Origin: Raillietiella orientalis
Taxonomy: Eukaryota
DNA length: 64,000 bases
Assembly (NCBI GenBank): GCA_036172245.1
Contig: JAYWIR010000057.1
Coordinates: forward strand, 248,001 to 312,000
Direction: 5' to 3'
Shown here: piece after piece, positions 4,697 to 27,099 of the stretch
Layout: every line of letters begins with the position of its first letter
Numbering within the stretch: the first letter of the stretch is position 1
The notes under the pieces: model-generated
The model's database searches: none
What the model was told of the DNA's origin: nothing
What the model saw: the letters and a program-made list of their open reading frames with translations, nothing else
Program-made: the position numbers and the translations under genes

Positions 4697-6306
4697 AAGG
4701 GCCAAATGCTGGAAACAAAGAAGAATGTCAATCGGTGAACCCGCATTCATCCACATGACCACCCCAACCGAGCACATTCTCTATCTACGCGAAGGTATCG
4801 TTTCCTTCAGTGCTCGCGAATCAAAGTGGTCACTTACTTCTTGCAAGTCTGCAATGACGGTATTCGAAAGGAATAAATCACATGCGACTCACTACGATAA
4901 CGAAAGGCACAGCAATGGTCATTCACTTTTCAACAATACAAATAAAAAAGAACTTAAAACTGAATGACTTGAAAGAAATTCTGAAACAAATCGAAAGTGC
5001 CCTGTTGCCATGTTATGCCGTCGATGATACCCAAAGCATCTGATAGTAGCAGAACGCTCCGTAATCGCGAACTCCGTTTAGCACCGCAACGTGCAGTCAA
5101 TGACAACTGTGCTCGTTCGTGACCGCAAGCACCGACTTTGCATGGAAATCACTCTTCAGAGAAACTTGCGGCCACTTTTTCTGATACGCACTCCACACGG
5201 AAAGTCGCACTAAATTGCTGGAAGTACCATGTTGCAAAATTTACTCCAAATGAGCTTCGAATTCCTGGCTGGGGGAAAACTCCGGTTCTGGATGTACCGA
5301 GCTGCACTGGGTCTCCATCTACTACTTTTTGCAGCAGACGCGGGCACATCAAACAGGCAATGCAACCACAGGAAATTGCCAGGTAAAGCACAAACCACGG
5401 ACACGAATGGCTGTGGCTTCAACTGTTCTCTAAATGCTAATCTGTCTCGGTCGCTGCTCTGATGAACCCTCACGGATCGACTTCTGCATCCGTCTGTGTA
5501 ACCAAATTTCCGCACCATCGCACTCGATTAAAAAAATATGTCTGTTCGGTTGTTTTATTCAAACCAAAGAAACACTTTTAATACGATGGGTATCCGTTAT
5601 AAAATCCGAAAATCGGAAAGAAGAAGCCCTTTGTTTACCACATTTTTCATGCTCCCAATGATTGCAACTATTCTCTAGATACGAAACGGATGTCTTTAAG
5701 CTTGCCGAGCACATAAAGGTTAGAATAAAAGCTTCGATTACAGTCAAGCGGAACCACACGCCTGTACGTGAGAGATCCCATTTAAATTACATTACAGTTT
5801 ATACACGTCTTTTCAACTCTCTGTCCGGAGAACTTTGTTAAAAATCATCGCCTTTTTAATCGATAAATTCCATTTTGAGTTCTGCATTGATGACTGTCAG
5901 AAAAATTAAACAAATCTCATCCACACTTTTCATTTTTTGATCTCGCTCGTTCTGATCAACAACATTCTTAACTTTTTCTTTTTCCTTTCCTCTCCCCCCC
6001 CCCCTTCCCCGCTCTTCAGAAATTCTACATATTCACTGAGAATGGTGCTCTCTTCGTTTACTTTATTCCCACTGAACACCCACAAAGCGTTCCATAGAAA
6101 TCACTGGGACGCCCAATACTTTATTAGGAGCATAAATTACTCTTTTGAATACCATTTTCGTCAACCCCCTTCCTGATACACTTCCAAAATTTACGTTCGA
6201 CATCACCTTTGAGTACATAAAACTTCGTGTACTTTCTGAAACTACACAATTCTCAAGTAATGGATGCAAGTGCAAAATGAACCTCCATTACGTTTAATTA
6301 AACTGC

Positions 6307-6340
<34 letters not shown>

Positions 6341-9300: not shown

Positions 9301-12300
9301 CTTCCACGAATAAACTTATCTGCCTATATTCTACGCCCCCGATTCTTCAGATTCACTCTTTATTATGTAGTTGGATTTGAAAGTACAGGTAATTTCTAAC
9401 GTGACTGTAAACGAATCTTCGAATACTCAACGAAAAGGGCTATATGGAGCAAAGACTTGTGCCCTTATTATAATTTCTTAGAGCAAGTGACATTGAGCAA
9501 CTTATTTGCTATGCTTTTAAAAATGTATGGATGCGCAATATCCGCATCCTCCCTCTTCAAACTAGTACAAAGAGTTTGTAAAGATTTCTTGTGATGCTAA
9601 TACCAAGATTTTTTTTATAACTTTTCCGTGTCCTTTGACCAAACTGTTTCAGAAACCAAGGCATAAACACATACGTTTCACAATACATTAACCGTTTCTT
9701 GATGCCCCTCTTCAAAGGCTGTAGAAAACATGCATCACCTGGAGAACGAATAAAAGTGGCTTCCTGATCAGACACATTAATGGGGATCTTTTATCATCTG
9801 GAAAGGTATATTGATGCATAGCTTCTCCAAATGATAATAAATTCGATTTATGTTTGAAACTTCCAATGATATCAGAAAATTTGAAAACGGCTAAACTCTT
9901 TGTCTTTTCAATGTAAGAAACGTTTCGTGATATCCTAAATTTTTAAATGGTGAATCTTGAATTTTTCCTGGAGGTAATGCAGCACTGTGTGCTAGTTACA
10001 CAACCAAATTCAACCAACTTTCATCCCCTCTAGAACTCGGAGCAAAAAAAAACTTTGGTCTTTATGAGTATTTATTCGATCTTGATCTCAGAATCCATAT
10101 CTCTTCATCATTTAAATGCATTATTCCCTTTGTTAATCGCGATCTTAGGATGCCTTGCTCTCATCATTTCCATAACTAATTTATCTTCCTGAACTCACAA
10201 TGCAAACACTATTCTCCAAACAGATAAGATCTTGTAGAAAAAAAAAAAAATCTTCTCTCTTATTGGATTTTTACGCGAAATATCAGTAGATATTTTGATA
10301 CCATTTCGGTAAAAGTGTTACATTACATTCATAAGAAAGGCAATTTTTTACATATGTATCAACTTTGCCAATTCAGAGTTTACTGATAAACCATTTTCCA
10401 CCGTTCCAGTAATTGTTATTACGAAAGCAGAACGTTTCGCAATGCATTACTGAAAACAACACATTAGGAAAGAGCAAGAAAAATGATAACAACGCCAGAC
10501 CATAACTTATTCTCTCATGCACAACTTCGACTATCTGGAGTGATTATCTACTGAAGCATGCATATGAAACATGACGCTGAGGAAATTCGGATTCACACGC
10601 GATCAGGGCATTTCCACGACTGTCTGTTTGTTCTTCAATTTCCTGAAGACCAATTTACTTTGTTAATTTTTCCCACGTTTGACCGTCAACAGTTATTCCG
10701 GTGATATCCCACCAACGTAATTAAATTATACACATTTTAATGTACAATCAATCAAGTCTGCGATGCACATGAAAGCCATTAAAATGTTACCTCCTCAACT
10801 TGATGAAGCTACATGATTTCCCAAAGATGACACAATGAGATTGATTCCTATGGGTCCATTAGTATCATTAGCTGAGAAACTCGATTTTCCTTCTATAAAA
10901 TTTGCTGCACACCGTACTGTGCTCTAAATGGTACATGTTTGATAAATTTGATGAATATAATACTTTCATTGATGATAATTTCATTGTATCTCTTTGCATT
11001 TAAAAAGAATGCAAGGTACTTATAATTCTTAATATTTTGTACATTCCGATTCAAGAATCTCTCAACTGGGCACTTAATGTAATTCATGAAAAGTCTACTG
11101 AAACAATGTTTAAAATAAATTCATTCATGAAATAAATTCATATCTAACAAATTCCTCAACTGTCACCAATTGCCATTACCAAATAGAATTAATACAACAG
11201 TAAAACCAATACTTTCTTTATTACTGAGTTTCTACTGTTTCATTCTGCATACGATTTCATGCTCGCAGGAAAGTGGATGATGAATAACTCATCAATCTTC
11301 CAATGATTGTGTAGAAAACTGCAGTTCTTAATGTAAGCTCTAAACAAATATTACTGCATTGCAACTAGTGATTAATACATGGAATATCGCTTTCCCAGTG
11401 ACTTTTTTGGATTAGCCATTCGAGTCATCAGGATACACTGCAGTCTTTCTAGTGACTGACGGGCTTGCTCATCTCAAATGCACAAGAAATTTAATCAAAT
11501 TCTCCTGCGTCTAAAATTGTTCCGCTACATGGGATGTAGTCTCTAGTTTTTATTCCATATTACAAGAATGTAACCGCTCAAAGAAATGCTGATAAATGAC
11601 TTAACAAAATTGAAAACAATCATGAAATGGAGTGCGGAGATAACAGCAAGAATAAGGTTACAGACCATACAACACAGAAAAAAATGTTCCAGTTTCCCAA
11701 GATTCCATGAGTTGAAACCCTAACGAACTACAAGGAGGCAGATTAAGATTATGAAGTGGAATGCACTGCAGCTAGATGAAAGTAACCACACTGTATTATT
11801 ATTATACAGTGTGGTTACTCTCAAATGACACAGTCATGGTGGCCAATTGGCACCGAAAAAAAGAAGAGCAAAAGAAAACAGGCTACAGTTGAGGAGCATA
11901 ATAAATCATGAATTAATTCGTTGAACGAAAGGAATTCAACAATTCATTTTTTCTTGTTCCCATATGTTTTTTCAGCACAATACGGAAACCTTTTCTCGTT
12001 TCATTTCATGCATTGAGTTTTTAACATGAAATAGGGATCCAGGAATTCTTACAACGGTAGCCCGTTGATGCCGCACTATGACAAATCGCATATCGACTCT
12101 TCCATGCAAAATTAACTATGGAGCATACAAGTCAACGTGGGAATTTCTCAAATAGCACATTAAGAAGGATTGCTACAAAATTTTATCCATCTTGAATGAT
12201 CCTAAATGAAATAATATGTGAAAAACAATGAAAAAACTATGTAAGATGAAAAAAAAATTTCACTTCGGAACAGTTATAACGATATAACGATGTTTTCTGA

Positions 12301-15112
12301 AAAAAATCCACTCTGAGAATCAAGCTACATTCTGTATTCTTTTTTTTATGGAAAAAATTTGAACTAGCTTGTTCTGATTTGCTTTTGTTCATAACATTTT
12401 AAAATGAGTCGACTAGTCTTATTCGAATTACAAGCATCCCACATATTTAGTAAATATTACTAAATCATCAAAATACACACAAATCCAATATGTATGAAAA
12501 AAATACCATTTGAGCAAACCTTCCATAGTCGAAGTTATGAATTTGCAAAATTCACAATTCGCAGTTATTTGGTTGCAAAAACATTCTACTGAAAACAAGT
12601 GAAAACTTTAAAATGCAAACAGAAACTTGTCACCAAAGCCTTATAGTTCATGAAAGCGATAAATATAAATTGCAAGGGTTGCGTGTATTCAAAGCATACT
12701 GAATTTGCCAAAACACCCTTACCATATCCCTAAGATCAAGCCATCACTCTTTTTGATTATGTCAGTGAACATGAATATTAATAAAAAGCATGAGGAGAAT
12801 GTTCTGCATTACTGTGACTTTTATAATCAAATAGATTTACCATCTTTAATATTTACAAGAACAGATATGTCATATTTGTAACCCAGCTCGAAATTGATAG
12901 ATGGTTTACCACTTTCTGAAAGAAACGTTTCTACACACAAAAAAAAAAGCGTTCATACCAGTCACATATGTGTGCAGAGTATCAAATGATTCACAAAATT
13001 AACCCTAGAAAGAATTACCGAACAAAAAATTGCGGAGGGGCATAAAAGTACTGAGCTAAAAACTACATTTCATTTTCAACTCTATGAATACTTTTTGGTC
13101 ACCAGAGACAATCAAATATCTTCCAGAGTTTCTTAAGAAATTTTTTCAAGTTGTGATAAGACAAACACAAACATGTCATGAATGTGACAATTTGAGGAAT
13201 GCCTTTGCAGCCAGTGTTTGATATTTTTGCATGAATAACGTTAAAAAAATGCAGCCAAAATAAACTAATGCAAATGTACCTCAGATATAGCTTTGCCACA
13301 TCCTTTGTTTTCACATGCTGTGCAAGCATTAGATTGCTTCTTTATGCAATGTATTTCTGGTTTTCATAAGATTTTTAAAATCTAATGGGAAAAGTACTAA
13401 TTGTACATCATGTATGTATTTAAATAGATATCTGCCCAGAGGGAAAAAAATACATGGAATAAAGTGATTAAACCAAAATAGAAACTGCCAGCCCAATACT
13501 CAATATTTCACATTTTTCTACACTTTCTGCTGAACTTCTAATTTCTGGTAATTTTTCACTGCGTATTTTATACATCATCAATAATTCTTATTCAAATCAG
13601 AATCATTACGATTTAAGATTATACACGTCATTAATCAAAAACACATATTTAATTTCCACTGTATTTTTTTTTACAGCTGCTATTTTTCTGCACTTGCTTT
13701 TCCAATACACTTTCTTTAGCCCTACTTTTTCAAAATAATTCTCTTTTTGGAAAAACTGAGCATCAAATTAGCTTAAACCAAAGAACCAACTAATTAATTA
13801 GAATTTAAATTAAGTAACTGCAAAATGATTAAGGAATTATATTTTGTTTCTAAAACCTTTCAGTCATACATCTTTAGCACTCAAGATTCACGTTGGTGTA
13901 TTTCCTAATGAATGTAAGCTCAATGTAATTACAAAAAATTATAAACAACTTTCCCATCATATGCAACAAGTTATTTTCTCTAGGCTACTACCAACATTAC
14001 TTGCTAACAGAAGATTCTATTTTGGTTTCTGAAATTAAAGATATCTAATACTATTCACTGTTGCTTACCATGTGCTCATTCTTCTTGAAAAGAAGCACAA
14101 AATTTCAATGCAATTTACATATAAAACCAGAAAGTGGAACTCAAGACACAAAGGATATGATAAAACCAGAAAACAGGAAATTACAAAAATGAATGTCCTG
14201 AACTGCTTTAAAACTCCAAACTGAATTCATAAGGAGATGAAAAATTACAGGGCATATAATAATTGTTTTAATTTTGATATAGTAGAGCAAAATTTGCTTA
14301 ACTAATCAAGAATATGGAATTTGTAAAAAGCAAATTCCAAAAATCTGTTCTCTTGTGCAAAAAACGCATTTAACCTCAAAAATAGTCTAATTTAATCATG
14401 CAATAAACAAGGAAAATCTCAATGAATACGAAAGGGTCCACATAGTACTTTAAACAACATAAAAAGAATGCTACCATGACAAAGATACTTTTGTCTCTTG
14501 CTCTTGTTAAAGCAAATGGCCATAAGTATAATAATTCTAATGAAATTAACATTAGCAAGTACTAATGCTTAATAAATTAATTGTTTTTATTTGGAAATAC
14601 GATGAAATTGTTCTTTATTAAAACAACCACATCTGCACTTGAGCTTTTCATTTAAGTAACTTAATTTTAAGCATTTCCCAGACCAACAGCCCACCTATAT
14701 GCTTAATTTCACATAAAGTAACATCATTTAAATTATACACGAAATGAGTTCGTTTACATAATACTCTCTACTACTTACAGAGAAAAACCTGAAATAATTT
14801 CCAAAACCTACATAACAAAATCAATCAAGTTATCGTAGATGCATTTTTCATATGCATTTAATTTGTCCAAATCAGTCCATGATGAACTGTGATCTTTTTT
14901 TTTTTTCTATAAATTTTCACAAATAACCCAAAATTACTTTATAATCATAGATAATAAAAAACTTGAAAAATTATTTTAGTTACTCAAAACCAACTTACAA
15001 CACTGTCTTGGAAACAGTACTCTGCACTACTCTTCCCACTGAAAGATTCTACTTTCTTTTTCTTTGCAGGAGGAGATGCTGATTTGTTGGTGTTTCTGAC
15101 AGTATCTGACAT
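1034..15112 (-). CDS. UBA1: Ubiquitin-activating enzyme E1, long NLS-bearing isoform (~1059 aa). Exons: 15112-14999, 4708-4466, 4416-4282, 4230-4033, 3984-3852, 3804-3560, 3503-3225, 3174-2908, 2858-2723, 2682-2150, 2091-1899, 1851-1667, 1613-1422, 1360-1034
   Basis: The distal exon reads [38 protein letters not shown] and ends at a phase-0 GTAAGT donor. It joins in frame to the TTCCAG acceptor at 4709 (HLAL-MAQNG...). The core exons carry the UBA1 motifs. Linking the distal exon to the core is an inference from frame, splice signals and the NLS. Confidence 0.75.
5229..5382 (+). other. Possible first coding exon (signal-peptide-like) of an unidentified gene, antisense within UBA1 intron 1
   Basis: An ATG-initiated frame ...[30 protein letters not shown] ends at a CAG|GTAAAG donor. 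No downstream exons were found. Confidence 0.25.
6308..6337. repeat. Poly(T) tract (~30 nt)
   Basis: Direct reading. Confidence 0.9.
11781..11819. repeat. Perfect 16-bp inverted repeat with a 7-nt spacer
   Basis: AGTAACCACACTGTAT-TATTATT-ATACAGTGTGGTTACT. Confidence 0.9.
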
Positions 15113-15873
15113 CTATTTCCAGATTCTTGCCAATTTTTGTAGACGTAGCTTGGATTTTACTGTTTTAATAGTACAAGATTTAATGAAAGATTTGAATTCA
15201 CAAATTCCAATAAACTCTGAAAAAAGAAACCTTTTGATTGTTTTTGAAGGCAAACTTGAATTATCCATGCAAACAAAAGAAAAAAGTTATATCTAAATGA
15301 AATCTAAGACTCAATAAACATTCTTGGGTGCAATACAAATTCTAAAGGTAATACAAATAAGTTATATTAAGGGATAAAAATAAATAAACGATCTCTACTT
15401 TCCAAAGTCGTTAAAAATTTCGATATGGAATTAACTTTCGATATCTGCTGTTACACTGACCATAGAATGACAAAAAATCTAATTACACCAAAATATGAGA
15501 TATTTACACACACATAAGCTTAGGTAATTTCGTTTTCAATCAACAGTCTCGTTTCCTTAAAAGAACCAACAACAAAAGTGTTTATTCAAGGAAAAAAATT
15601 AACGTGCCAATCTGATCTTGTCGCATAATTGACAAAATTTTGTTTATAGTCACACCCATACAAACAAAACGCTCTGGAATCAGCTGTGAGAGCTGAAAAC
15701 GGCAAAATCAGTGGAAAGCAGCATCAACCAAAAAGTGGTGTACAGTGGTGCATAAATGTTACTACAAGTTCTTAAAGTATTCTGAGCAAGAATAACGATA
15801 AGTTTATGAAATCTAAGCTTAGAGACGTTTTAATGCAATGTCTAAACACAAATTCGAAATCAGCTGAGGAAAG

Positions 15874-15908
15874 TTGATTTCAGCGGTTGTATAAACCGCT
15901 GAAATCAA
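15874..15908. repeat. Perfect 15-bp inverted repeat with a 5-nt spacer
   Basis: TTGATTTCAGCGGTT-GTATA-AACCGCTGAAATCAA. Confidence 0.9.
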
Positions 15909-18900
15909 TAAAGGACCTGAAAGTTAAACCTGGAATGCACTGCATACGTTGCATTTTCACCCAATGGACAACATGCTTATGCACACATACACGAGCCTAA
16001 ACTTTCATCAGAATTCGGCAATTATATATTTAAAAATGCAATTTGGAGAATATAAGTGCTCAGGAGTTGAGAGGGATTTCAAAAGTAAAAAAAAAAACAA
16101 AAAAATGCTTCTTCCTACGAAGGGTTAACCTACATCTAAACTGCAAATGGCAAATAAAATGAACCCAATTTAGTGTCACCATTCCGCTTGTACAGCGCCG
16201 CCACCACAACACTTTCGTGAAACGATCACAAATATGCATACACAACCAATGTCTAGAGTTACTGACTTCGTACGGTATGCCTTTTGCATAATGACTATGC
16301 CACTTCGGGGTATAACTTCGGCTCCCTTGGTTATTAGTTCGAATCCGCTTGCAATCCGCTCAAAATCAACATAGATTTCACACACGGACCTTTACAAAGC
16401 TTTCGTACTACCCAGCATCTCACAAAAGATACTATTTTTGCATTTAATCTGTTCAGTTATCATGGTGTCCGCAAAAATACTTGTCAACCTTGAGAAGGGA
16501 TACATGAAAAGTAGACATCATACAGATTATTATCCACGAGCTGTACTAATTGCCGGTGCGATACTGCCAAATTTATCGAAACTATCAGCCCGACGGCCGT
16601 TGCACAATTAAATAAGTTACAAAATTCACAACTTACGTATACGTACATTCATGTGGTCATGAGAGAGACACATGCAAACGATCCCATATACGTCTTTAGT
16701 TTGAGAATGCTACTTTATGACCGTGAAACAAAATCGACGAGAGTACCATCAATGGTATAGAACAAACGCTCGCATATACACTCGCATACGTCTACTAGTA
16801 ATTCTATTTACTCAAAGACTGCTCCCTGTTTGGAATAACTTAATAAGAGCAGCATCTCATTCAGGGTTCGAAGCACTAATCAGTAGATACACACAAGTAC
16901 CTCAAGCCCAAAAAATTCTAAAGACTATCTATATTGCGAAAGCAGATTAAAAAATTGGAGAAACTATAATTTGATGGGTTGCCATAAAGAATGCCTCCCA
17001 TTTTTTCTTTCACCTGTTATTAGATTCACTCCAAAAATAAGCTTTTCGGCAGAGTTGGATTCTGCATGTTATTTAAGAAAGCATGACGCAACATTTCGAC
17101 AGATTGGGCACAGCTTTGTGTTTGAAATGCATTTCCAGGAAGTCACTCAAAGAGCAAATTTGCATGTTTTCAAATTATCAATCAATATTGATCAATACTG
17201 ATGTATTATCCCCCTCAGCTCCTAAAGGTCAAATCTCAAGAGCACTCTTTTGGAAAAAAAGCAACGCAATATTGGAAACCAAACTGTGATTTTTAAACAA
17301 TTTGATTTTCTAATAATTTGGAGCACACTAAGAGTTCTCGATTCTAAACACTTCCACGATAACAAGTGCAGTAGTGTAGTGTGTGTGCTTTGTGGGGGGG
17401 GGAGGGAAGATGTTAGCCTAGGTAGGTATAAATCATGCATTTCCTGTACTCAATTTTTCTTTTCATTGGAACATTAATTACTCACATATAGACTTCCACA
17501 TGCCGAAAGCATCAAAATCCAACAGATAAATAGTTATCAAAAATTTCTTTTGAGGTTTTTTCTATAGTTCTGTCTTTCTCTCTCAATTCGTTTTGTTCGT
17601 TTACTTTAATTGAAGTTTACTACTTCTCACTTGTGTGAAGGTCGTGTTGCCTTCTCATTCGATTTCCTTGTTAGCAACGAAATCTTTCGAATGTTAGCAC
17701 CAGGTTTAATTATTTATTTCTCTGTTCATCTTCTTTTTCTAGAACACGGGCACAAATTGAGCTTCCGAGGATTTTTTTCCTTGTCCTTATGCTACAAAGT
17801 ATTTTCATAAAGACACCCATGTGTCCACCGCTGTAGATTAAGAAACTCAGATTTCTCTTTCGCAATCTTAACAATTATAATCTTTAGCTGATGTGTACAA
17901 ATAATTCTCTCTTATGGCTAATTGCACATTTCGATCAAAGAGTCTAAACAAAGAGTGCTGCCTCGTTGAAAAAGTTTCACGTGAAAAAATTCCAAAGCCT
18001 TCCTGAAAGCCTGGAAAGAATACCGTAGTATGAATAATAGATGGGGATCATACCCTTGAACTTGGAATGTAGATTTGGCTCAATAAAACCAGTTTGCTTG
18101 GCATGAAGAGGAACTCGGTGGAAATACACACAGAAGTGCTATAACGAATTATCGAAACGCATCTAATGTTGAGCTTATTGTTTAAATTTTAAGACTTGAG
18201 CTTATTGTTATAAAAACAAGATCAGCGTACATGGAATGCAAAACTTGATCTATAAAAAAGGTGGCAGTTGAGATTTTCTTTACGAGTATATCCTTCCGGA
18301 GAGCTACCCCATTGAATTCCAGAGAGCTGCTTCCATCCAATCTAATCCAGAGCTTCTTCCTCCCCCCCCCCCCCCCCGACCATTCCATACCCCAAAGCCG
18401 CAACACACCAATGTGAGAAGAACATACCAGTAACGACATACACGAACACACACCCCATTTAGTGATAAGTGCTGCACCATAGGTTCAGGTTCATGAAGCA
18501 TGACCACAGGAATCCATGGATAAAAAGTTGAATCACTCAGAAAGTCATCAGCTGAAATTGACGTCATCGATATTTCGTGTACAGCAATGTTGTGATAAGC
18601 CTGTAATTGAGGTATTGAAAGACGGACTGAATTCATCGCATGATGTGTATGCTGGGGGACATGACTCAACAACAGACTCATAAAGAGATACGTTTGAAAT
18701 ATCTTGGAAACATCATCCACAGCAACATATGATCGAAAATGATGAAGTTTTATGGATAGGTACCTTATATGGCGATGTCCTTCGTTTTTATGGTATTTTT
18801 TTATGTATAAAAAAAAAGAAAAGAAAAAGTAGGCTGTTTCACTCTAGTCGAAATTTCTATTCAAAACTAATGAAAACATTAATAGTCATTGCTGTTTCCG

Positions 18901-19112
18901 TCTGTTTGTACATAAATATTTTGAAATCATAATATTCGTAAGCAGATCTAAAAGATTGTCACTTACAATAATATATACTGTGAAACTCGTACCGAAAGCT
19001 TCATGATTTATTTCCTCTTTTGAAATAAAAGCTAATGGTTTGTATGGCAGCCAAGAAAAGTTCCTAATCAAATAAATTGAAAAATGTTCAAATTTTTTAA
19101 TTACTCGCCATT

Positions 19113-19618
19113 CAACACCCGGATATGCCAGGGCATTTATTTATAACAAATAAAAGTGCAATTACATTTTCGTGTGGTGAACCCAAAGGCTCACTACATC
19201 ATGGCAGCTTGCTGCTTGCCGAGGCAAGACCGGCGAGGTCCATCCGACGCGCGGGGGTAGGGATAAGTAAACAAAAAGAAACAAAAAAAGTAAACGTGGG
19301 GAAGGCAGAAATACCTAAGGGGTGGGGAGGGCGGGGAAGGGATCCTACTGCGCGCGGATCGGTCCTCTAGATCCTGTTCAGGATCCTCGCAAGCTGAGTT
19401 CTTGCGCCCAGGTGGGGCCACCAGCAAATGTTCCGTACAAAGATGCGCGTCCAGTGGATGGCATCCCTGCAATTACCTAAAATGACGAACGATGACGCGT
19501 ACGATTCTGATACGATTCCGCGAATGCAGCACAGCACTGCTATAGACGCGGCCGGGGGCAAACCGGCACGCGAGAAGAGGCTCCAGAAAATGTGGGGGTG
19601 CCTCCGTGAACGTTCAGG
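19113..19618 (-). mobile_element. 5'-truncated non-LTR retrotransposon (L1/Tx1-like ORF2 C-terminus plus 3' UTR) with a 13-bp target-site duplication
   Basis: A 506-bp GC-rich island in AT-rich DNA is flanked by identical ATTACTCGCCATT (19100-19112 and 19619-19631). A minus-strand frame (HIFWSLFSRA...LARILNRI*) is open from the 5' junction to a stop at 19367. A pyrimidine-rich UTR and AATAAA (19136-19141) follow. The clade call is from recalled motif similarity only. Confidence 0.75.
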
Positions 19619-20336
19619 ATTACTCGCCATTATTTAAACTGGGTATTGTAGATAATGTAGTAATTACAAAAATTACATACAGTGAAAATGGTAAACTTTT
19701 GATTTCATTACTTCAAAAATTAAAGGGGGGAAACAGGATACTTTATAATTTTTTAATACATACAGTCACAACTCTAGAGGAGGCAATGAGATCAGGTCTG
19801 ATGGTTAGTTTAAAACATTAAAGTGTAGACATGAATGTATAATTTTCTGCAGTGACTAGCGCTTTATAGAAATTTAAAGGCTTTGAGATTCTTGAATTTC
19901 CTTTTTTTGTAATTCTTTGATTGAGAATAAGACTATCGACATTCAATGGTTTTTTGGGCAATATACTCTTTTCTGTGATTAAAGGATTATCTGCACTGTC
20001 GAGTGCTGTCATGGAATCAGTCTCCAAGAATGCAATCAGTTTTCATATAATTGGATTCATGTTCACAGAATTTTGTCTTCTGTCTAAGAGTAATTCTCAT
20101 GCTACTGTGAATGGAAATCTAGAGCTGTAGTACAGAAAGACGTATGATATATCCGATTAATAAAAAATGAACGTCATTTGTTTAACCTAACTAAAAACAA
20201 ACAAATAAGCTCGCAGTGATTTTACTTAACAGTTGGGGCTCATCGCAAAATGGTTCTGATATTTTCCAGTGTCCACTAGAAGGACTCTTCTGAAAATGAA
20301 AATGGTTCATTTATATACATTGAGTATATATTTTAC

Positions 20337-20632
20337 TCGCTTGAGACTGTACGGGTAAGTGAGTTGTTATGTGTTGCAAATCATAATACTTGTTTATCGT
20401 TCGAATGATGTTAACGTTGCCGTAGTCCTCATACAAAACATCAAAACACCTGCTCAAATTCATGCATGCATCATTCATAAGTTTTATTTATATCGTAAAT
20501 CGGATATTTGGATTCGGTATTCGAGTTGCTGATATGCATTCCTTAAGAATACTTCGTTTTTGTCTGTGAGATCCCATTTTCCCTCCAATCGGTTGAGCAT
20601 ATGCCACATCCAGCAACTCTGCTGAAAATTGT
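20337..20632 (-). pseudogene. Possible Tudor-domain exon pair (relic or divergent gene)
   Basis: Two exon-like segments (~20632-20562 and 20449-~20337) have AG/GT borders. They splice to ...GICSTDWRENGISQTKTKCFDVLYEDYGNVNIIRTINKYYDLQHITTHLPVQSQ, resembling the Tudor W...V.(F/Y).DYGN...LP.Q pattern. Downstream exon-like segments have stops in all frames. Confidence 0.3.
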
Positions 20633-20661
20633 TTGGCAATCAGAATGCTAATTCATACAGT

Positions 20662-21347
20662 CAGGGTTGCCAAATTAGTGGATTTCACGCTAGATCTAGA
20701 GTTTCTGGAAACCCATCTAGTGGGTAAGAATATTTTATCCTGCTGAGCGGGAATTCTAGTTGTTTTTTAATCAGTGGTCACCGAAGATTACGGGTTTTTC
20801 ATGGCTGCAAAGAAAATTTTCAATTGTGGATGTGTAAATAGTCTGAAATGGAATTCCGAGTGTTTTTATCCACCCTTATTTCCATGTTGGCGGATTTGGA
20901 GTCACCTTAATAAATTATTGCATTATGGATAAACATTGTCGAGGAAAACGACTTTTTTATCATTAAACTATTTTGATATTTAAATTGTGATTGTTGCAGT
21001 GCAGCGGCAACTGACTTGAGAACTTAATTACAGTTTCCAGACTTTTCCAACGTTTTCCTTTAACCGTAGGTAATAAGACCGGCAGTGCCGCGCTCTCCTG
21101 GTAAACGTATCGGAACACGTGCAGCAGTAGCTTAGTAACACCAATTTCAGGTCATCAGCAATTAATTGTTAGTTTGCACTTTGTTTTTGCACTATTGAGT
21201 CCGAAGATAAAATGACATTAAGTGATTTAACAACGACAATAATAAATTCCTAGGTATTAAAATGTGGAAATTTGTTTTTGGTTTGGAGAATCGCGAGTTT
21301 TCGAAGGCCATCTAGCGGGATTCCATTAACTAATGTTGGCAACCGTG
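20662..21347. mobile_element. Non-autonomous DNA transposon (MITE) with hAT-like termini
   Basis: Left end CAGGGTTGCCAAATTAGTGGATTTCACGCTAGAT versus the reverse complement of the right end CACGGTTGCCAACATTAGTTAATGGAATCCCGCTAGAT. 686 bp, no ORF, TSD not cleanly preserved. Confidence 0.7.
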
Positions 21348-21899
21348 AACACACGGTATGATTCGCGTGTAAGTAACGGCGACTCACGAAGGCGTACGCT
21401 GTAGGATTTTGTTTGATACACCATGATTTTGTACTTGGATTCTTGTAGCAGCATATGGATTGCGGGATGTTTTGAATTGCAAAGTCAATTTGATTAAAGA
21501 TGCCTCGGAAGGTTGATTATCAATAAATTTTGTTTTTGAAAAAAAAAAAAAGAAAAAAAAAATAGATGTTTACGATTTACAGGTGTCGCAGATAAAACAA
21601 TTACAGATTTTTTTAACAACTGTTTGCAACGTTCTAACAGGCTGTTCATTTTCCCATCTTATTGTCGCGTGATTAATTTTGAGATCCCTTATTATTAAAG
21701 TAAGGTACGTCAAAGCTAATCAGACTTCAAAAAACTTTTGGTATCATGATGGTTGCTGTATATGTCAGTATTCAATTAGCAAATGAAATTTTTCGAGTAA
21801 TTAATATTTAAACTTTTCAGCAATACTTATTTAGAAGTATCGAAATTTCCTACGTTATATTGTTTCAATATTGCTTTCAAGGAGTGCAATTTGCAGAAA

Positions 21900-23729
21900 A
21901 TGAATGGCTTTCCCGTTGAACAATCTTCGCGTTCTAGGAAAAGAATTGAAAGCAGACAAAGAAAAAATCGTGCACTCTATCAGTTACTAATTCAGAGTAC
22001 AGAGGAAAAATGTGTATCTCATTCTCCCGGTGAAGAATCAACACATTCTCAGAATGAGTGTTCCATCAAAAAGAGGAAGGTAGAAAACATCCTGTCCCCT
22101 GAAGAACTTGCAGAATTGAGAGAAAAATTAAGAGAAAGACAGATACAGAAAATGTGTAAGCCTTCATTTTATCTAAATGAAGTGGGAATGAAATCTCAAA
22201 TACACATTGATTCAAGTGAAAGAATCCCCATATTTGTGAGTGATCTTCAGTGTCTGCTTCTGTATTCCCTAATAGGTAAAAGTGCCCCTTATCATCCACG
22301 TTGGTGTGAGATAAACCGATATAATATTCTAAATCAAGTGGAAATTATACTGTTAGATGGGTTGAATTTGAATGATTTCCTGCAGCAAGATTTCAGATTT
22401 ATGAAAACTTTGGAAAATCAACTTGAAGTTCTTTTACCCCAAAAGGAAGAGTTTTCCATTATTCAGGAACTTCTTTGTGTTCCACTCAGTTTGAACCAAA
22501 AAAACCGTATTGTTTCAATTCCGGATGCTATTTCACAAGGTCATGTACTTCAGATAATGAAATTTCTTTTCCCGATAAAGACATTAAATCTACAACACAA
22601 ATTTGAATTACTGAAAGGAAATGAAGTTATTCCCAGAACTGCTCTTTTGTTAAATTCTGTACAGCTATTGCATGAGAATTATCCTTTACCCATTTTTGTT
22701 GACCGCAATGACCATTTCATGAATTTTCGGTTCACCAAAGATTATTATGAAAGTGTGACTCCCACATCACCATTGATTGCTATTGACTGTGAAATGTGCA
22801 CCACTACATTGGGTCAAGAATTGACTCGAGTAGCTGTAGTTGCAGAAGATTATAAAGTTCTGTATCATTCTCTGGTCATTCCAGAAGGCAAAATACTAGA
22901 TTATGTTACTCGGTATTCAGGTATCACAAGGAACCTCTTGAGGGGAGTGACCACAAAGTTAAAAGATGTTCAAGATGCTCTGTGTACTCTTTTGCCAAGA
23001 GATGCCATTTTGGTTGGGCAATCATTAAATTGTGATCTCAAAGCATTGAAACTAATGCACCCATACATTATTGATACAAGTGTAGTGTACAATGTCACAG
23101 GCAATCGAGGTCGGAAGACTAAGCTTTCAGTCTTGACTAGTATGTTTCTTCAAGAACAGATTCAGCAGAAGGAATCAGGTCATGATCCTATAGAAGACAG
23201 CATTAGTGCTATGAAATTAATTCAACTTAAGTTACAAAAAGGTTTATCTTTTGGTGATGTGCTATTGCATGGAGAGATACCTGTTCTTCAAGGAGAATTC
23301 AAAAATGCGCATGAAAAACTTGTCCCAGCAGAAGAGGCGAAGTTCAAAACATCATTAACAACAAATTTGTTACATTATGTGCAAGCTGTTAAAAAGAAAA
23401 GTTTATATGTTGGTCCTGCATTTGATAATGTCACTCAACCTTTGTTGAATAACATTCTGAGTTGTAAACTTGTGACATCTGTTAAAGATACATTTAATAT
23501 CTCTTGTAAAAAAGCTTCGAATTTTGACTTTGTAATTACCAATGTATCTTTGAATGAAGAATTGAGAGGAGAAAAAAATTGGTCTTCTGTTTTGGGGAAA
23601 GTTGACCGAAGAGTTGATGAAAAAGTCAAGTGTTCAAAGAGAAACTCCTTGTTTGTGATCTTGTTTTCTGGATCATGTGTACCCACAACTTGGCAGAGTG
23701 GAGTGTGCCTTGTACATTTGAAGTTATGA
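21900..23729 (+). CDS. REXO5: RNA exonuclease 5-like (NEF-sp/REXO5) DEDDh 3'-5' exonuclease, 609 aa, intronless CDS
   Basis: ExoI IAIDCEMC, ExoII LVGQSLNCDLKAL, PYIIDTS and ExoIII GHDPIEDS, plus TRYSGIT typical of the REX1 family. The N-terminal PRWC-containing region resembles arthropod REXO5. First ATG is at 21900 (the ORF track starts at an upstream TTG). Confidence 0.85.
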   Translation: MNGFPVEQSSRSRKRIESRQRKNRALYQLLIQSTEEKCVSHSPGEESTHSQNECSIKKRKVENILSPEELAELREKLRERQIQKMCKPSFYLNEVGMKSQIHIDSSERIPIFVSDLQCLLLYSLIGKSAPYHPRWCEINRYNILNQVEIILLDGLNLNDFLQQDFRFMKTLENQLEVLLPQKEEFSIIQELLCVPLSLNQKNRIVSIPDAISQGHVLQIMKFLFPIKTLNLQHKFELLKGNEVIPRTALLLNSVQLLHENYPLPIFVDRNDHFMNFRFTKDYYESVTPTSPLIAIDCEMCTTTLGQELTRVAVVAEDYKVLYHSLVIPEGKILDYVTRYSGITRNLLRGVTTKLKDVQDALCTLLPRDAILVGQSLNCDLKALKLMHPYIIDTSVVYNVTGNRGRKTKLSVLTSMFLQEQIQQKESGHDPIEDSISAMKLIQLKLQKGLSFGDVLLHGEIPVLQGEFKNAHEKLVPAEEAKFKTSLTTNLLHYVQAVKKKSLYVGPAFDNVTQPLLNNILSCKLVTSVKDTFNISCKKASNFDFVITNVSLNEELRGEKNWSSVLGKVDRRVDEKVKCSKRNSLFVILFSGSCVPTTWQSGVCLVHLKL

Positions 23730-23769
23730 GACCTATGTTTGATGTGTCCAAATCAAATTTGGGCACAGC

Positions 23770-23775
23770 AATAAA
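23770..23775 (+). promoter_or_regulatory. Poly(A) signal AATAAA of the REXO5-like gene
   Basis: Canonical AATAAA 40 nt after the stop, followed by a T/GT-rich downstream element (TTTGTTCTGATGTTTT). Confidence 0.65.
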
Positions 23776-25043
23776 TATGTAGCCCTTTGTTCTGATGTTT
23801 TCATTATCCTATTCAATTACGTTTAAAAATGGAAATCATGCTTAGTTTCTATGCAGTGCTTCCTTTGTATGAATTTTCAGAATTGCAGAATTCCAGTAGA
23901 AAACTAAAATGACACAGTGGATCTTATGAACAAAATGCGGATTGTTAAAATGTTTTTAGTTGTTTTTTTAGCAGTAAGGTGGGATGCAATTTATAATTCA
24001 GATTTGTGAATTGGAGACATGATTATTATGTGAATAGTCTTATGTGTGCTTTTATGTATAGCATTATCCAACATATAATATGTATCAATAGCTATGTTTC
24101 CTGTAGTTTTTCAATTTTTGTAGATAGATTTAAGCATGCAAATGCATTAGTCATGAAAAAAATGGCTTCTTTTGTAAAACCCTCATAGTTGTGTTTCAAT
24201 TTACTGATATATTTATTTTATTTTCTCACCAAAAAAAATATTGAGGGTATCTTTCCCGGCATGCTTTATAAATGTCTTCATTTCTGCAAAATCAGTTGAA
24301 CTTATTGTTTACTGTAAACTGTTTGTGCTTCTAATTCCCTATGAACTATCAGGAACTTTCTTGGCTTGCAAACATTAAATGAGGTGCTTCTGATTTTGCA
24401 AACAAAGGAATGTAGTCACATTCACAAATTCACAAAAATTTTTTGACTTTGCATTTCTCATGTTATCAAGTAATACTTTGCAATCACATGCACAAAAGCA
24501 TGTTGTGTTTGACATTATATTTTGTCTTGACACTGAATAAGTATTACAATTACAATTTTTTCATTTTCTATGTTTAAAAATTGTGGTTGCATTCAGAAAA
24601 TATTGCGTTTTCTTGTTTGGTTCCCTATTGTGACCTTTATTAGTTTGGTAGAATTTATTTTTTCACGAGCACCATTTCTTTGTCTTTTGTACAGTTGCTT
24701 GTACTCTTTGTTGTGGTGATTGCTAGAAGTTTTGTGAACTTCTCTGTTGTAGAAAATTATTGTTTCTACTTTACAGTAATGAAACTTGTACTGCATGTTG
24801 TATTGGCAATGCTAAAGCCTAAAGTGCACCTTTTCATTTCAAGTATTTTTTCATCCTGTTTTCTGGTTAATATTCTGTTTTGTATGCAAAGTACTGATAT
24901 ATGGTGTCAATGTTTATGTTGATCTGAGTGATTTGCTGTGTTCATGCAAAATTCCGTTTTGCAGGTTATAATGAATCTGACATGTTCATTAAACAGCAAT
25001 TACATAGTACAGACTCGAAAATTAGCTTGCTTATTCATATAGA

Positions 25044-26159
25044 ATGCAAGATATTGTTGCTAATTGTGAAAATGTCAAGTTTGACATTGAAATTGCTTTG
25101 GAGCAACAACTTGGTGCACAGCCCCTTCCTTTCCCTGGGATGGACAGTAAGTGACACCTTAGATTGCAGCAAGGACTGGCAATTTACTCTTATTGTTTGT
25201 AGAGACTACAGCAGCTGTATGCTCTTTTTATGCCAAAAGTTCTTGTAGTAAGGGTACATCCTGCCCATTCCGACACATCCTTGGTGACCGCACCATTGTT
25301 TGTAAGCATTGGCTAAGAGGTCTCTGCAAGAAGGGTGACCAGTGTGAATTTCTTCATGAGTATGACATGACAAAAATGCCAGAATGCTATTTTTATTCTC
25401 GGTTTAGTGAGTAAATGGGAACAAAGATATCCATATCTTGCTTTGAAATTTTAGATGCATGTCACAACAAAGAATGCCCTTTCCTTCACATTGACCCAGA
25501 ATCAAAGATTAAAGACTGCCCGTGGTATGATCGTGGTTTTTGTCGTCATGGTCCCAACTGTAGGCACAGGCATGTGCGCAGAGTCATATGTGTAAATTAT
25601 GTTTCGGGGTTCTGTCCAGAAGGTGCCAATTGCAAATTCATGCAGTGAGTACTTAAAAAAAGGTTTAACTGAGGAGTATCTTGTTTTTTAGTCCTCGTTT
25701 TGAACTTCCAGCACCCATAGAAGAGATGCAAAAGCAAACTAAGAAGGTAATTATCACATGCCATTACTGTGGGGAGAGTGGGCACAAAGTAGTTCAATGT
25801 CCCAAAATGCCCCCAGAACTCAAGGAATTACAAATGAAGTCTCAAATTGAAAGGCAGGAGGTGAGTTGATTCCTCCCGTTCAATTTATTCTATACTCCGT
25901 GTAAATTTAGCAAATGCAAATTCTGGCACAAAGATATGGCATGACTGCACTTATGAATCACTTGGATGATTTAAGGGGCAAAAATCAACAGAGACCTTTA
26001 GAAGAGGTTACTTGTTATAAGGTAATATGTTTGTGTACTGTTTTTTCTGTCTAATGGGAATTTTAGTGTGGTGGCAAAGGACATTATGCAAACAAATGCC
26101 CTAAGGGACATCTTGCTTTTCTTAGCAGTGATTTAAGCAATCTCAGGGAGCGCAGCTAG
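25044..26159 (+). CDS. CPSF4: Cleavage and polyadenylation specificity factor 30 kDa subunit (CPSF30/Clipper), 289 aa. Exons: 25044-25146, 25203-25406, 25455-25644, 25692-25860, 25911-26021, 26067-26159
   Basis: N-terminus MQDIVANCENVKFDIEIALEQQLGAQPLPFPGMD. Five CCCH fingers (VCKHWLRGLCKKGDQCEFLH, ECYFYSRF, DCPWYDRGFCRHG) and two CCHC knuckles (CHYCGESGHKVVQC, CYKCGGKGHYANKC). Five GT-AG introns of 45-56 nt give an 870-nt frame. Confidence 0.97.
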
Positions 26160-26484
26160 TGTGGGATCAAGACAAAACCTATAAAATATCCTCTAACTTT
26201 TTCTTTGATGGCTGTCCTCTGTTCTGTGTTATTAAGAAAGATCATCATTCTCAGTATTCTCTTTATTAATTTCTTCAGAAACTTGGTATGTAGCAACATA
26301 GCAAGAACAATTCCTGTTCCAGCATATCGTAAATCTATTCATGAATCCATATGAGAATTCATTGTAGGGGACTTTTGACGTAGTCTGATTTCAGTGTGAG
26401 TGTGGATTCCTATCTGGTTTTAAACGGATCCGTTGGTTGCCCTTGGCCTTTATTATGAATTTATTGGTTCAGGACTATTGTTTT

Positions 26485-27099
26485 TCATGTCTGTTCTGCT
26501 TGAGGGGTTTCGGTTTTTTCCTCTGCTGGTTTCTCTTCTGCTGGCTTCTCCTCTGCTGGTTTCTCAGGTGCTGGTGGTGCCTCAGCTAATGGTTCAGCTT
26601 CAGCTGGAGGAGCTCGCTCAGGAGCCAGTGGCAGCGGCGCTGCTTCTTCTGCTGCTGCGAATTTTTTTACTTTTTTGCCCTTTTTCAGTGCTTTTCTTAT
26701 TTTCACTCCAGCTGAATCTTTTTCTCCCAACTTGATTTTTTTAATTTGTTGCTTCTGACCAGACCACATCCAGCGCAACTCATCGAAAAACTACATTTTT
26801 TTTAAAAGGCAAGAATTTCAATAAAAGGGACATGTTCAACTTACCCAGCAACAGCAGTACGCCAATATAAAACCACTCAAAAATAGTGTTATCGCTAATG
26901 CTACAGAGGTTGCAGCAACTGAAGCATCAAATTCTCCTTCTGTATAAACTGGAATCTGTTCTTCTTCTGCAGCGGTTGGTTTTTCCTCTCCCTCTGCTTC
27001 TGGTTCTGCACCAGCTTCCTCCGGTGCTTCTTCTGCACCAGCTTCTTCAACAGGTTCCTCTTCTGCTCCTGCAGGTACTTCTTCACCTTCTTCCTCCAT
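26485..27099 (-). CDS. Unrecognised 186-aa single-pass membrane protein. Exons: 27099-26845, 26790-26485
   Basis: Two ORFs join in frame across a 54-nt GTAAGT...TAG intron. Acidic E/A/P-rich N-terminus, hydrophobic SVALAITLFLSGFILAYCCCWFF, Lys-rich juxtamembrane segment and EKPAE repeats. Two AATAAA signals at 26449-26465. Confidence 0.8.
26521..26565 (-). repeat. Coding tandem repeat, 3 x 15 nt (EKPAE)
   Basis: CTCTGCTGGTTTCTC / TTCTGCTGGCTTCTC / CTCTGCTGGTTTCTC on the + strand. Confidence 0.85.

What the first reader, a model, noticed from the sequence alone, without database searches (positions are those of the whole stretch)
21350..26159. REXO5 may be an alternative terminal exon inside the CPSF4 transcription unit, a possible poly(A) feedback switch
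Seen: both genes are on the + strand, 1.3 kb apart. The CPSF4 ATG is immediately preceded by acceptor-like sites (TTTTGCAG at 24964, CATATAG at 25042). The spacer 23730-24960 is T-rich and nearly CpG-free, like intron or gene-body DNA, with no promoter-like patch. The only CpG-containing 5' region, with UTR-exon signals (donors at 21511 and 21704, acceptors at 21582, 21820 and 21881), lies upstream of REXO5, whose ORF is a single exon closed by a canonical AATAAA (23770). Known: CPSF30 directly reads AAUAAA, and the 3'-processing factors CstF-77 and PCF11 autoregulate through intronic polyadenylation. Inference: shared leader exons splice either to REXO5 (cleaved at 23770) or over it to CPSF4, so high CPSF30 would favour REXO5 mRNA and limit its own. 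A dicistronic or trans-spliced arrangement is the alternative.
Basis: partly seen in the sequence, partly recalled or inferred. Interest (0 to 1): 0.8.

Follow-up and report, generated by a model that had tools for sequence, protein, structure and literature searches.

The report
Tandem REXO5 and CPSF4 genes
Two ordinary housekeeping genes of an arthropod, an RNA exonuclease and the poly(A)-signal reader CPSF30, lie head to tail in one block of DNA that looks methylated; sharing a promoter is possible, but the sequence alone cannot show it.

Summary
The genes are real. 21900-23729 (+) is a complete, intronless REXO5 orthologue. 25044-26159 (+) is a six-exon CPSF4/CPSF30 with introns of 45-56 nt. 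The 1,314-nt spacer is T-rich and CpG-depleted (7 CpG, o/e 0.23, with TpG/CpA excess). It belongs to one CpG-depleted block, about 21.95-27.3 kb, that also covers a convergent minus-strand gene. The only plus-strand AATAAA in 21900-26500 lies 41 nt after the REXO5 stop.

The splice-like motifs exist, but most are no better than chance. A splice acceptor just before the ATG is also seen at UBA1, whose whole 5' UTR intron fits within about 250 nt.

No RNA runs and no genome were available, so shared leader exons could not be tested. None of 80 CPSF4 loci from other organisms carries REXO5 nearby. A louse has the two genes 8 locus tags apart.

My reading:
- About 0.55: separate tandem genes, with CPSF4 starting in the spacer.
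- About 0.2: CPSF4 starts upstream of REXO5, as ChAT does with VAChT. The missing CpG-normal patch keeps this alive.
- About 0.08: the proposed poly(A) feedback switch operates.

Interest is low to moderate.

The parts
20500..21950 (.). CpG-normal 5' flank of REXO5 (CpG o/e about 0.8-1.4; CpG clusters at 21051-21118 and 21292-21397). Candidate REXO5 promoter and leader region.
21702..21711 (+). Best donor-like site upstream of REXO5, AAG|GTACGT (GT at 21705). It lies in an ATG-free stretch, 21567-21745.
   Evidence: (top 0.25% of GT sites)
21813..21896 (+). Acceptor-like sites before the REXO5 ATG: CTTTTCAG ending at 21820, TTATTTAG ending at 21834, and TTTGCAG ending at 21896, 3 nt before the ATG. 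There is no upstream ATG in 21821-21899.
21900..23729 (+). REXO5 (RNA exonuclease 5 / NEF-sp) coding sequence: 609 aa in a single exon, with the DEDDh domain at about residues 285-447.
23770..23775 (+). AATAAA, 41 nt after the REXO5 stop, followed by a T/GT-rich stretch. It is the only AATAAA on the + strand in 21900-26500.
23730..25043 (+). Spacer of 1,314 nt: T 41%, 7 CpG (o/e 0.23), TpG and CpA in excess, most T-rich at 24450-24900. None of the 12 open frames of at least 45 aa scanned has a Pfam hit, there is no Rfam match, and the sequence is unique in the window.
24267..24299 (+). TATAAA (24267) and Inr-like TCAGTT (A at 24294), 27 nt apart. Candidate core promoter, weak evidence.
24957..24964 (+). 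TTTTGCAG acceptor-like site, 79 nt before the CPSF4 ATG. An exon starting here would carry upstream ATGs at 24971 and 24982.
25036..25042 (+). CATATAG acceptor-like site, 1 nt before the CPSF4 ATG. By the local matrix it is ordinary (top 20% of AG sites).
25044..25146 (+). CPSF4 exon 1, starting at the ATG.
25203..25406 (+). CPSF4 exon 2 (CCCH zinc fingers).
25455..25644 (+). CPSF4 exon 3 (CCCH zinc fingers).
25692..25860 (+). CPSF4 exon 4 (first CCHC knuckle).
25911..26021 (+). CPSF4 exon 5.
26067..26159 (+). CPSF4 exon 6 (second CCHC knuckle, stop TAG).
26180..26185 (+). TATAAA, the only one of the eight poly(A)-signal hexamers scanned that lies on the + strand between the CPSF4 stop and 26500.
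26485..27099 (-). Convergent two-exon gene for an acidic, Pro/Ala-rich protein with a hydrophobic, possibly membrane-spanning stretch. It has no Pfam family. It closes the CpG-depleted block.

Best explanation
REXO5 and CPSF4 are two separate, tandem housekeeping genes.

REXO5:
- It is transcribed from the CpG-normal region at about 21.0-21.7 kb.
- It probably has a short non-coding first exon or exons and a 5' UTR intron, from the donor at 21705 to an acceptor at 21820, 21834 or 21896.
- It ends at the canonical AATAAA at 23770.

CPSF4:
- It starts at its own TSS inside the 1.25-kb spacer downstream of that poly(A) site.
- It probably also has a short non-coding first exon and a 5' UTR intron ending at 24964 or 25042. 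UBA1 in this window shows the same layout.

CpG depletion:
- The even depletion across the spacer arises because REXO5, CPSF4 and the convergent minus-strand gene lie in one germline-methylated domain.
- Transcription running past the REXO5 poly(A) site, together with CPSF4's own 5' UTR and intron, keeps the short gap methylated.

Shown: gene identities, exon structure, composition and the poly(A) signal. Inferred: methylation, the TSS positions and all 5' UTR splicing.
For: GENE IDENTITY AND COMPLETENESS
- REXO5: the best hits are arthropod proteins named RNA exonuclease 5, at 33-45% identity and up to 99% coverage. It is collinear with them, and D296, E298, D379, H428 and D433 are invariant. 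The DEDDh domain matches SDN1 at 1.3e-22.
- CPSF4: the model gives 289 aa with five CCCH fingers and two CCHC knuckles. 205 of 293 aligned columns are identical to a stick-insect CPSF4.

A REAL 3' END FOR REXO5
- AATAAA occurs once on the + strand in 21900-26500, 41 nt after the stop.

LOCAL GENE ARCHITECTURE
- UBA1 has an Inr-like TCAGTT, a donor GAA|GTAAGT at 4837 and an acceptor TTTGTTTCCAG 12 nt before its ATG. All of this lies within about 250 nt.
- All 14 introns inferred in the window are 40-127 nt.
- A TATA/Inr-like pair lies in the spacer (3.3% of shuffles).

RELATIVES
- cDNA-like CPSF4 contigs have 5' UTRs of about 24-250 nt (one is about 494 nt), and none carries REXO5.
- 0 of 80 CPSF4 loci has REXO5 in its flanks. 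19 of those loci have at least 3.3 kb upstream.
- One locus, L035, has a CPSF4 upstream region that is CpG-depleted for more than 2 kb.
- Methylated insect genes cluster in short runs (Nasonia, PMC3794928, passages).

PRIOR (my knowledge)
- Most same-strand neighbours about 1 kb apart in arthropods are independent transcription units.
Against: - No window of 300 nt in the spacer holds more than 2 CpG, where about 7 would be expected at o/e 1 (positions; my arithmetic). An own promoter would therefore lie in DNA that looks methylated in the germline.
- In 3 of 7 CPSF4 loci examined (L018, L076, L069) a CpG-normal patch sits within 750 nt upstream of the ATG.
- In Nasonia, flanks and intergenic DNA are depleted of methylation (PMC3794928).
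- Methylated arthropod genes tend to be broad-TSS housekeeping genes (PMC7343188, passages). That makes the TATA/Inr match less expected for CPSF4.
- The six fly core-promoter consensus motifs that I recalled from memory gave nothing in the spacer.
- Every candidate first exon in the spacer carries upstream ATGs.
- The spacer's best donors (23974, 24384) are far from the acceptors.
- No transcript data support any TSS.
Confidence: 0.55

Rival explanations
1. CPSF4 transcription starts in the CpG-normal patch upstream of REXO5, and REXO5 sits as a single-exon gene inside the CPSF4 first (5' UTR) intron. The two genes either share leader exons, which is the first reader's alternative-terminal-exon model and the layout of the cholinergic ChAT/VAChT locus, or they use neighbouring start sites. 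If the leader is shared, use of the REXO5 poly(A) site competes with splicing to CPSF4. High CPSF activity would then lower CPSF4 mRNA.
For: - One continuous CpG-depleted, TpG/CpA-rich block runs from about 21.95 to 27.3 kb. The only CpG-normal DNA on the 5' side lies upstream of REXO5.
- Three comparator CPSF4 loci have a CpG-normal patch next to the ATG, which is missing here.
- REXO5 is intronless while its neighbours have about 3 introns per kb of coding sequence. About 6 would be expected in 1.83 kb, so the Poisson probability of none is about 0.003 (my arithmetic).
- Donor 21705 is in the top 0.25% of GT sites and lies in an ATG-free stretch.
- Acceptor 24964 is one of the two best in the spacer.
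- The same layout is proven in ticks: a shared 82-bp exon 1, with the VAChT ORF in one exon inside the first ChAT intron (PMC7524744).
- Pcf11, CstF77 and RBBP6 autoregulate by alternative polyadenylation, and CPSF30 fingers 2-3 read AAUAAA (PMC7614891, passages).
Against: - It needs an intron of about 3.3 kb where all 14 inferred introns are 40-127 nt.
- A strong canonical poly(A) site and nearer acceptors would have to be skipped for an essential gene to be expressed.
- The adjacency is absent from 80 CPSF4 loci. In the louse Menopon the genes are 8 locus tags apart, and in 2 of 4 comparable species they are on different contigs.
- No long complementary arms bracket REXO5 that could loop it out. 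There are only 13-24-nt AT-rich matches.
- No transcript evidence exists.
Confidence: 0.2
2. The pair is co-transcribed as one precursor. CPSF4 mRNA would arise in one of three ways: read-through past the REXO5 poly(A) site with splicing from a donor in or after REXO5 (for example 23974); a dicistronic RNA; or spliced-leader trans-splicing at TTTTGCAG (24964) or CATATAG (25042), as in an operon.
For: - Acceptor-like sites lie 1-79 nt before the CPSF4 ATG and 3 nt before the REXO5 ATG.
- The spacer is CpG-depleted as if transcribed.
- Donor 23974 (GCA|GTAAGG) is in the top 0.6% of GT sites.
- + strand G>C and T>A skew runs on from about 19.5 to 26.4 kb.
Against: - The best hits are arthropods, mostly insects. 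From my knowledge, trans-splicing in arthropods is reported only for copepods and amphipods.
- The 1,314-nt gap and a canonical poly(A) signal right after REXO5 do not fit a tight operon or a dicistronic mRNA.
- No SL RNA or other Rfam family is in the window.
- UBA1's acceptor next to its ATG has a matching cis donor 127 nt upstream.
Confidence: 0.08

Closest known systems
Cholinergic gene locus (ChAT with VAChT nested in its first intron, sharing exon 1). Shown for Ixodes ticks in PMC7524744 (passages read) and reported there as common to metazoans.
   Same: - A complete ORF in one exon, on the same strand, lies upstream of the first coding exon of a second gene.
- That exon has its own acceptor-like site and poly(A) signal.
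- The downstream gene's ATG exon is preceded by an acceptor-like site.
   Different: - There, a shared exon was proven by RT-PCR and the layout is conserved across phyla.
- Here, no transcript is known, and the adjacency is missing in all 80 CPSF4 loci examined.
- Here the two products are not steps of one pathway.
Autoregulation of 3'-processing factors by alternative or intronic polyadenylation: Drosophila su(f)/CstF-77, PCF11, RBBP6 (review PMC7614891, passages read).
   Same: If CPSF4 began upstream of REXO5, a strong AAUAAA would lie in its first intron. Its use would then compete with production of full-length CPSF4 mRNA.
   Different: - In the known cases the poly(A) site lies in an intron of the factor's own coding region and gives a truncated transcript.
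- Here it would end a second, complete gene.
- Whether it lies in a CPSF4 intron at all is unknown.
- My one literature search on this listed no paper that, by title or abstract, describes such autoregulation for CPSF4/CPSF30.
Ordinary tandem housekeeping genes inside one gene-body-methylated cluster, as described for Nasonia (PMC3794928, passages read).
   Same: - Neighbouring housekeeping genes share CpG depletion with TpG/CpA excess.
- The gene spacing is short.
   Different: - In Nasonia, methylation is concentrated in exons, and flanks and intergenic DNA are depleted of it.
- Here the non-coding spacer is as depleted as the exons.
Spliced-leader operons of nematodes and tunicates (recalled, not read here).
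   Same: Same-strand genes with an acceptor close to the downstream ATG.
   Different: - The gap is 1.3 kb.
- The taxon is arthropod.
- No SL evidence could be sought.

Membership tests
REXO5 / NEF-sp (DEDDh RNA exonuclease 5) | DEDDh catalytic residues in the three Exo motifs | tested here: met
   D296, E298, D379, H428 and D433 are invariant in the alignment with six homologues. Residues 285-447 match SDN1 at 1.3e-22 and ISG20 at about 3e-12.
REXO5 / NEF-sp (DEDDh RNA exonuclease 5) | Full-length similarity to proteins named RNA exonuclease 5 | tested here: met
   Best E-value 9e-109. The named hits are arthropod 'RNA exonuclease 5' / NEF-sp, at 33-45% identity and up to 99% coverage. The protein is collinear with them from the first Met to the C-terminus.
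REXO5 / NEF-sp (DEDDh RNA exonuclease 5) | Pfam RNase_T (PF00929) match | tested here: inconclusive
   0 families even at E<=10, while the lacewing homologue P0008 matches at 5.9e-13 in the same tool. The domain is seen by phmmer against PDB, so this is a profile or filter miss, not an absence.
CPSF30 / CPSF4 | Five CCCH zinc fingers followed by CCHC knuckle(s) | tested here: met
   The spliced model has 5 CCCH patterns and 2 CCHC patterns. The exons match zf-CCCH at 1.8e-12 and zf-CCHC at 4.9e-5.
CPSF30 / CPSF4 | High full-length identity to known CPSF4 | tested here: met
   195-205 identical residues in global alignments to five arthropod CPSF4 proteins. Exon 2 is 79-87% identical to named arthropod CPSF4.
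   (sequence level only)
   No RNA run was listed and no genome is held.
   There is no CpG-normal patch in the spacer. Against that, a TATA/Inr-like pair is present, and a comparator locus has an equally depleted upstream region (L035).
   0 of 80 CPSF4 loci has REXO5. In Menopon the genes are 8 locus tags apart, in Chrysoperla they share a chromosome-sized contig only, and in Cryptolaemus and Tigriopus they are on different contigs.
3'-processing factor autoregulated by intronic polyadenylation | A poly(A) site inside an intron of the factor's own transcription unit, whose use responds to the factor's level | not testable with these tools
   It depends on the CPSF4 TSS and on perturbation experiments. 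Only the AATAAA itself is shown.
Spliced-leader operon | Short intercistronic gap and an SL on the downstream mRNA | tested here: not met
   The gap is 1,314 nt with a canonical poly(A) signal. No SL RNA family is in the window. The presence of an SL on mRNAs could not be tested.

The most novel reading that the evidence does not exclude
CPSF4 has no promoter of its own. It is transcribed from the CpG-normal region upstream of REXO5 and shares a leader exon ending at 21704. The intronless REXO5 exon, with the locus's only AAUAAA, acts as an alternative terminal exon in the CPSF4 first intron. On this reading the cell's poly(A)-signal reader sets its own level by choosing between cleavage at the REXO5 site and splicing on to CPSF4. 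Output of an rRNA/snoRNA 3'-trimming exonuclease would thereby be coupled to mRNA 3'-end capacity.
Probability: 0.08. Interest if true: 0.7.

Novelty: new member of a known kind. Interest (0 to 1): 0.27.

Why it matters
If the two genes are simply neighbours, this is routine annotation of two conserved RNA-processing genes in an unannotated arthropod genome. One mildly useful lesson follows: a promoter may lie in CpG-depleted DNA when housekeeping genes are tightly packed.

If CPSF4 really depends on skipping the REXO5 terminal exon, it would be the first case of CPSF30 controlling itself through poly(A)-site choice. It would also be a second, independent example of the ChAT/VAChT type of nested, shared-leader locus. 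One 5' RACE or long-read cDNA experiment would settle it.

Tried and rejected
- RNA evidence: the look-up of sequencing runs listed no RNA holder, so read laying was never called.
- Whole genome: none is held.
- Earlier notes of this scan: none on this genome or on the REXO5 sequence. The one word hit, a viral CPSF30, is unrelated.
- Rfam over the whole window: 0 matches.
- Pfam on 150 open frames of at least 45 aa in 4.65-21.5 kb: 0 families.
- Pfam on 12 spacer frames and on the two exons of the convergent gene: 0 families. The controls in the same call worked.
- Retroposition marks for the intronless REXO5: no flanking direct repeats beyond short chance matches and no A-run after the poly(A) signal. 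The louse linkage also argues against a random retro-insertion. I dropped retroposition as a claim and kept it only as a possibility.
- Fly core-promoter consensus motifs, recalled from memory: nothing in the spacer. One E-box-like site with 1 mismatch lies at 21615.
- TATA+Inr pairs over the whole window: 3 found against 1.9 expected, so there is no general enrichment.
- ATG-free stretches: 24571-24778 (209 nt) lies in the spacer, but by my arithmetic about 0.5 such stretches would be expected there.
- Inverted repeats that could loop out REXO5: only 13-24-nt AT-rich pairs.
- Spacer against the window and the 80 loci by blastn: no copies.
- The splice-site matrix from 12 introns is too noisy for acceptors. 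It scores CTTTTCAG at 21820 below zero, and it did not list the UBA1 5' UTR acceptor TTTGTTTCCAG among sites scoring above 5.
- Upstream of CPSF4 in L037: 9 frames, no Pfam family.

Full report
WHAT IS THERE

The open frame 21900-23729 (+) encodes 609 aa. Its best relatives are arthropod proteins named RNA exonuclease 5 / NEF-sp, at 33-45% identity, up to 99% coverage and a best E-value of 9e-109. It aligns from its first Met to its C-terminus with six full-length homologues. The DEDDh residues D296, E298, D379, H428 and D433 are invariant. Residues 285-447 match the solved SDN1 and ISG20 exonucleases. Pfam reported nothing for it, although a homologue passed in the same tool. I treat that as a profile miss. 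REXO5 is therefore complete in one exon.

CPSF4 is a six-exon gene: 25044-25146, 25203-25406, 25455-25644, 25692-25860, 25911-26021 and 26067-26159. Its GT-AG introns are 56, 48, 47, 50 and 45 nt. The product is 289 aa with five CCCH fingers and two CCHC knuckles, and it is about 70% identical to arthropod CPSF4 proteins.

The organism is an arthropod with no close relative in the protein collection. The best UBA1-exon identity is 85% to a planthopper, and CPSF4 exon 2 reaches 87% to an ant and to a stick insect.

THE OBSERVATION

The gap between the REXO5 stop and the CPSF4 ATG is 1,314 nt. The composition claim is solid. The spacer has 41% T and 7 CpG, with CpG o/e 0.23, TpG 1.48 and CpA 1.61. 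These values match the REXO5 coding sequence (0.34) and CPSF4 (0.27), whereas DNA upstream of 21.9 kb is at 0.90 and DNA beyond 27.25 kb is at 0.87. The depleted block runs from about 21.95 to 27.3 kb and also covers a convergent minus-strand gene (26485-27099).

CpG loss with TpG/CpA gain is the usual footprint of germline methylation. That is an inference, since no methylation data exist here.

AATAAA occurs once on the + strand in 21900-26500, 41 nt after the REXO5 stop, so REXO5 has a convincing 3' end.

The splice-like motifs are weaker. I scored them with a matrix built from 12 local introns. Only donor 21705 (top 0.25% of GT sites) and acceptor 24964 (top 2.2% of AG sites) stand out. 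The 'donor at 21511' and acceptors 21820, 21881 and 25042 are unremarkable. The matrix is noisy for acceptors, so this cuts both ways. A random position in the non-coding 5.1-21 kb has an equally good acceptor within 80 nt upstream 5.7% of the time.

CAN THE MODEL BE TESTED HERE?

It cannot be tested directly. No RNA run was listed and no genome is held. Everything about transcripts is therefore inference.

- No 300-nt window of the spacer has more than 2 CpG, where about 7 would be expected at o/e 1 (positions; my arithmetic).
- I profiled seven CPSF4 loci from other organisms. Three (L018, L076, L069) have a CpG-normal patch within 750 nt upstream of the ATG next to a depleted gene body. One (L035) is depleted for more than 2 kb upstream, like this window. 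Three show no contrast.
- In Nasonia, methylation is almost confined to transcribed genes, and flanks are depleted of it (PMC3794928, passages).
- REXO5 has no intron, while CPSF4 and UBA1 carry about 3 per kb of coding sequence. The Poisson chance of none in 1.83 kb is about 0.003 (my arithmetic).
- The layout has a proven arthropod precedent. In Ixodes, ChAT and VAChT share an 82-bp exon 1, and the whole VAChT ORF is one exon in the first ChAT intron (PMC7524744, passages).
- The background claims hold. CPSF30 fingers 2 and 3 read AAUAAA, and Pcf11, CstF77 and RBBP6 autoregulate by alternative polyadenylation (PMC7614891, passages).

EVIDENCE AGAINST IT

- UBA1 in this window has an acceptor 12 nt before its ATG, a strong donor 127 nt upstream of that acceptor, and an Inr-like TCAGTT about 120 nt further up. 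An acceptor next to the ATG is thus the local norm and goes with a nearby first exon.
- All 14 introns inferred here are 40-127 nt, whereas the model needs about 3.3 kb.
- An essential gene would have to skip nearer acceptors and a canonical poly(A) site.
- The spacer holds a TATAAA/TCAGTT pair with 27-nt spacing, seen in 3.3% of shuffles. The match was chosen after the fact. It is also not the promoter type expected for methylated housekeeping genes (PMC7343188, passages).
- The adjacency is not conserved. 0 of 80 CPSF4 loci from metagenome contigs has a REXO5 match; 19 of them have at least 3.3 kb upstream.
- cDNA-like contigs among these loci have 5' UTRs of about 24-250 nt, with one of about 494 nt.
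- Contig lengths and locus tags allow four comparisons. The louse Menopon gallinae has REXO5 (PYX00_008239) and CPSF4 (PYX00_008231) 8 tags apart on one contig. Chrysoperla has both on one chromosome-sized contig. Cryptolaemus and Tigriopus have them on different contigs.
- The louse result suggests an old regional linkage, not an old shared transcription unit.

VERDICT

The most likely reading (about 0.55) is two independent tandem genes in one methylated domain, with the CPSF4 start somewhere in the spacer. I put a CPSF4 start upstream of REXO5, shared or adjacent, at about 0.2. Within that, the poly(A) feedback switch is at about 0.08. Co-transcription with read-through splicing, a dicistronic RNA or trans-splicing is at about 0.08. 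The rest is unassigned. The genes themselves are ordinary orthologues. The one unusual feature is a promoter-less-looking, CpG-depleted gap before an essential gene, and a single 5'-end mapping experiment would resolve it.

Noticed in passing
window 26160-26500 (+): The gene for the AAUAAA reader has no AATAAA or ATTAAA after its own stop. Of the eight hexamers scanned, only TATAAA at 26180 is present. The convergent minus-strand gene has AATAAA (as TTTATT) at 26262, 26449 and 26460, so the two 3' ends must abut or overlap within about 100 nt.
   Followed up: partly
window 1034-4960 (-): A complete UBA1 (ubiquitin-activating enzyme E1) gene with introns of about 40-74 nt in its coding part and a 127-nt 5' UTR intron. 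It is GC-rich (49%) and CpG-normal (o/e 0.99). Unlike REXO5 and CPSF4 17 kb away, it therefore looks unmethylated although it is a housekeeping gene.
   Followed up: partly
window 32000-64000: 33 kb of about 49% GC with strong TpA depletion (o/e 0.46) and far more long open frames on both strands than I would expect by chance. 0 of the 32 frames scanned in this stretch has a Pfam family, and megablast finds no internal repeats. I have no explanation.
   Followed up: partly
window 5000-19600: Strand composition (G-C and T-A skew) is steadily minus-strand-like from 5 to about 18.5 kb. It flips to plus-strand-like near a 600-nt GC-rich (55%), CpG-normal patch at 19050-19650. This could mark a divergent promoter or a long minus-strand transcription unit, but 150 open frames scanned across 4.65-21.5 kb gave no Pfam family.
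   Followed up: partly
window 13000-15000: A second CpG-depleted stretch (o/e 0.32, GC 29%, TpG 1.36) with no recognised gene.
   Followed up: no
window 26485-27099 (-): A two-exon gene with an intron of about 53 nt. Its product has an acidic Glu/Ala/Pro-rich N-terminus, a hydrophobic stretch that may span the membrane, and a Lys-rich then Pro/Ala/Glu-repeat tail. It has no Pfam family.
   Followed up: partly
proteins P0008, P0207, P0247: In the lacewing Chrysoperla carnea, UBA1, REXO5 and CPSF4 are all reported on a contig of the same length (77,476,099 nt). This hints that the three neighbours in this window belong to an old insect linkage group.
   Followed up: no
window 24971-25042 (+): If the 24964 acceptor is used, the CPSF4 leader carries a 23-codon upstream ORF whose stop (TAG, 25040-25042) lies 1 nt before the main ATG. 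It also carries a second, out-of-frame upstream ATG at 24982.
   Followed up: no
window 18360-18378 and 21539-21562: A run of about 19 C at about 18360, and an A13-G-A10 tract at 21539-21562 in the REXO5 upstream region.
   Followed up: no
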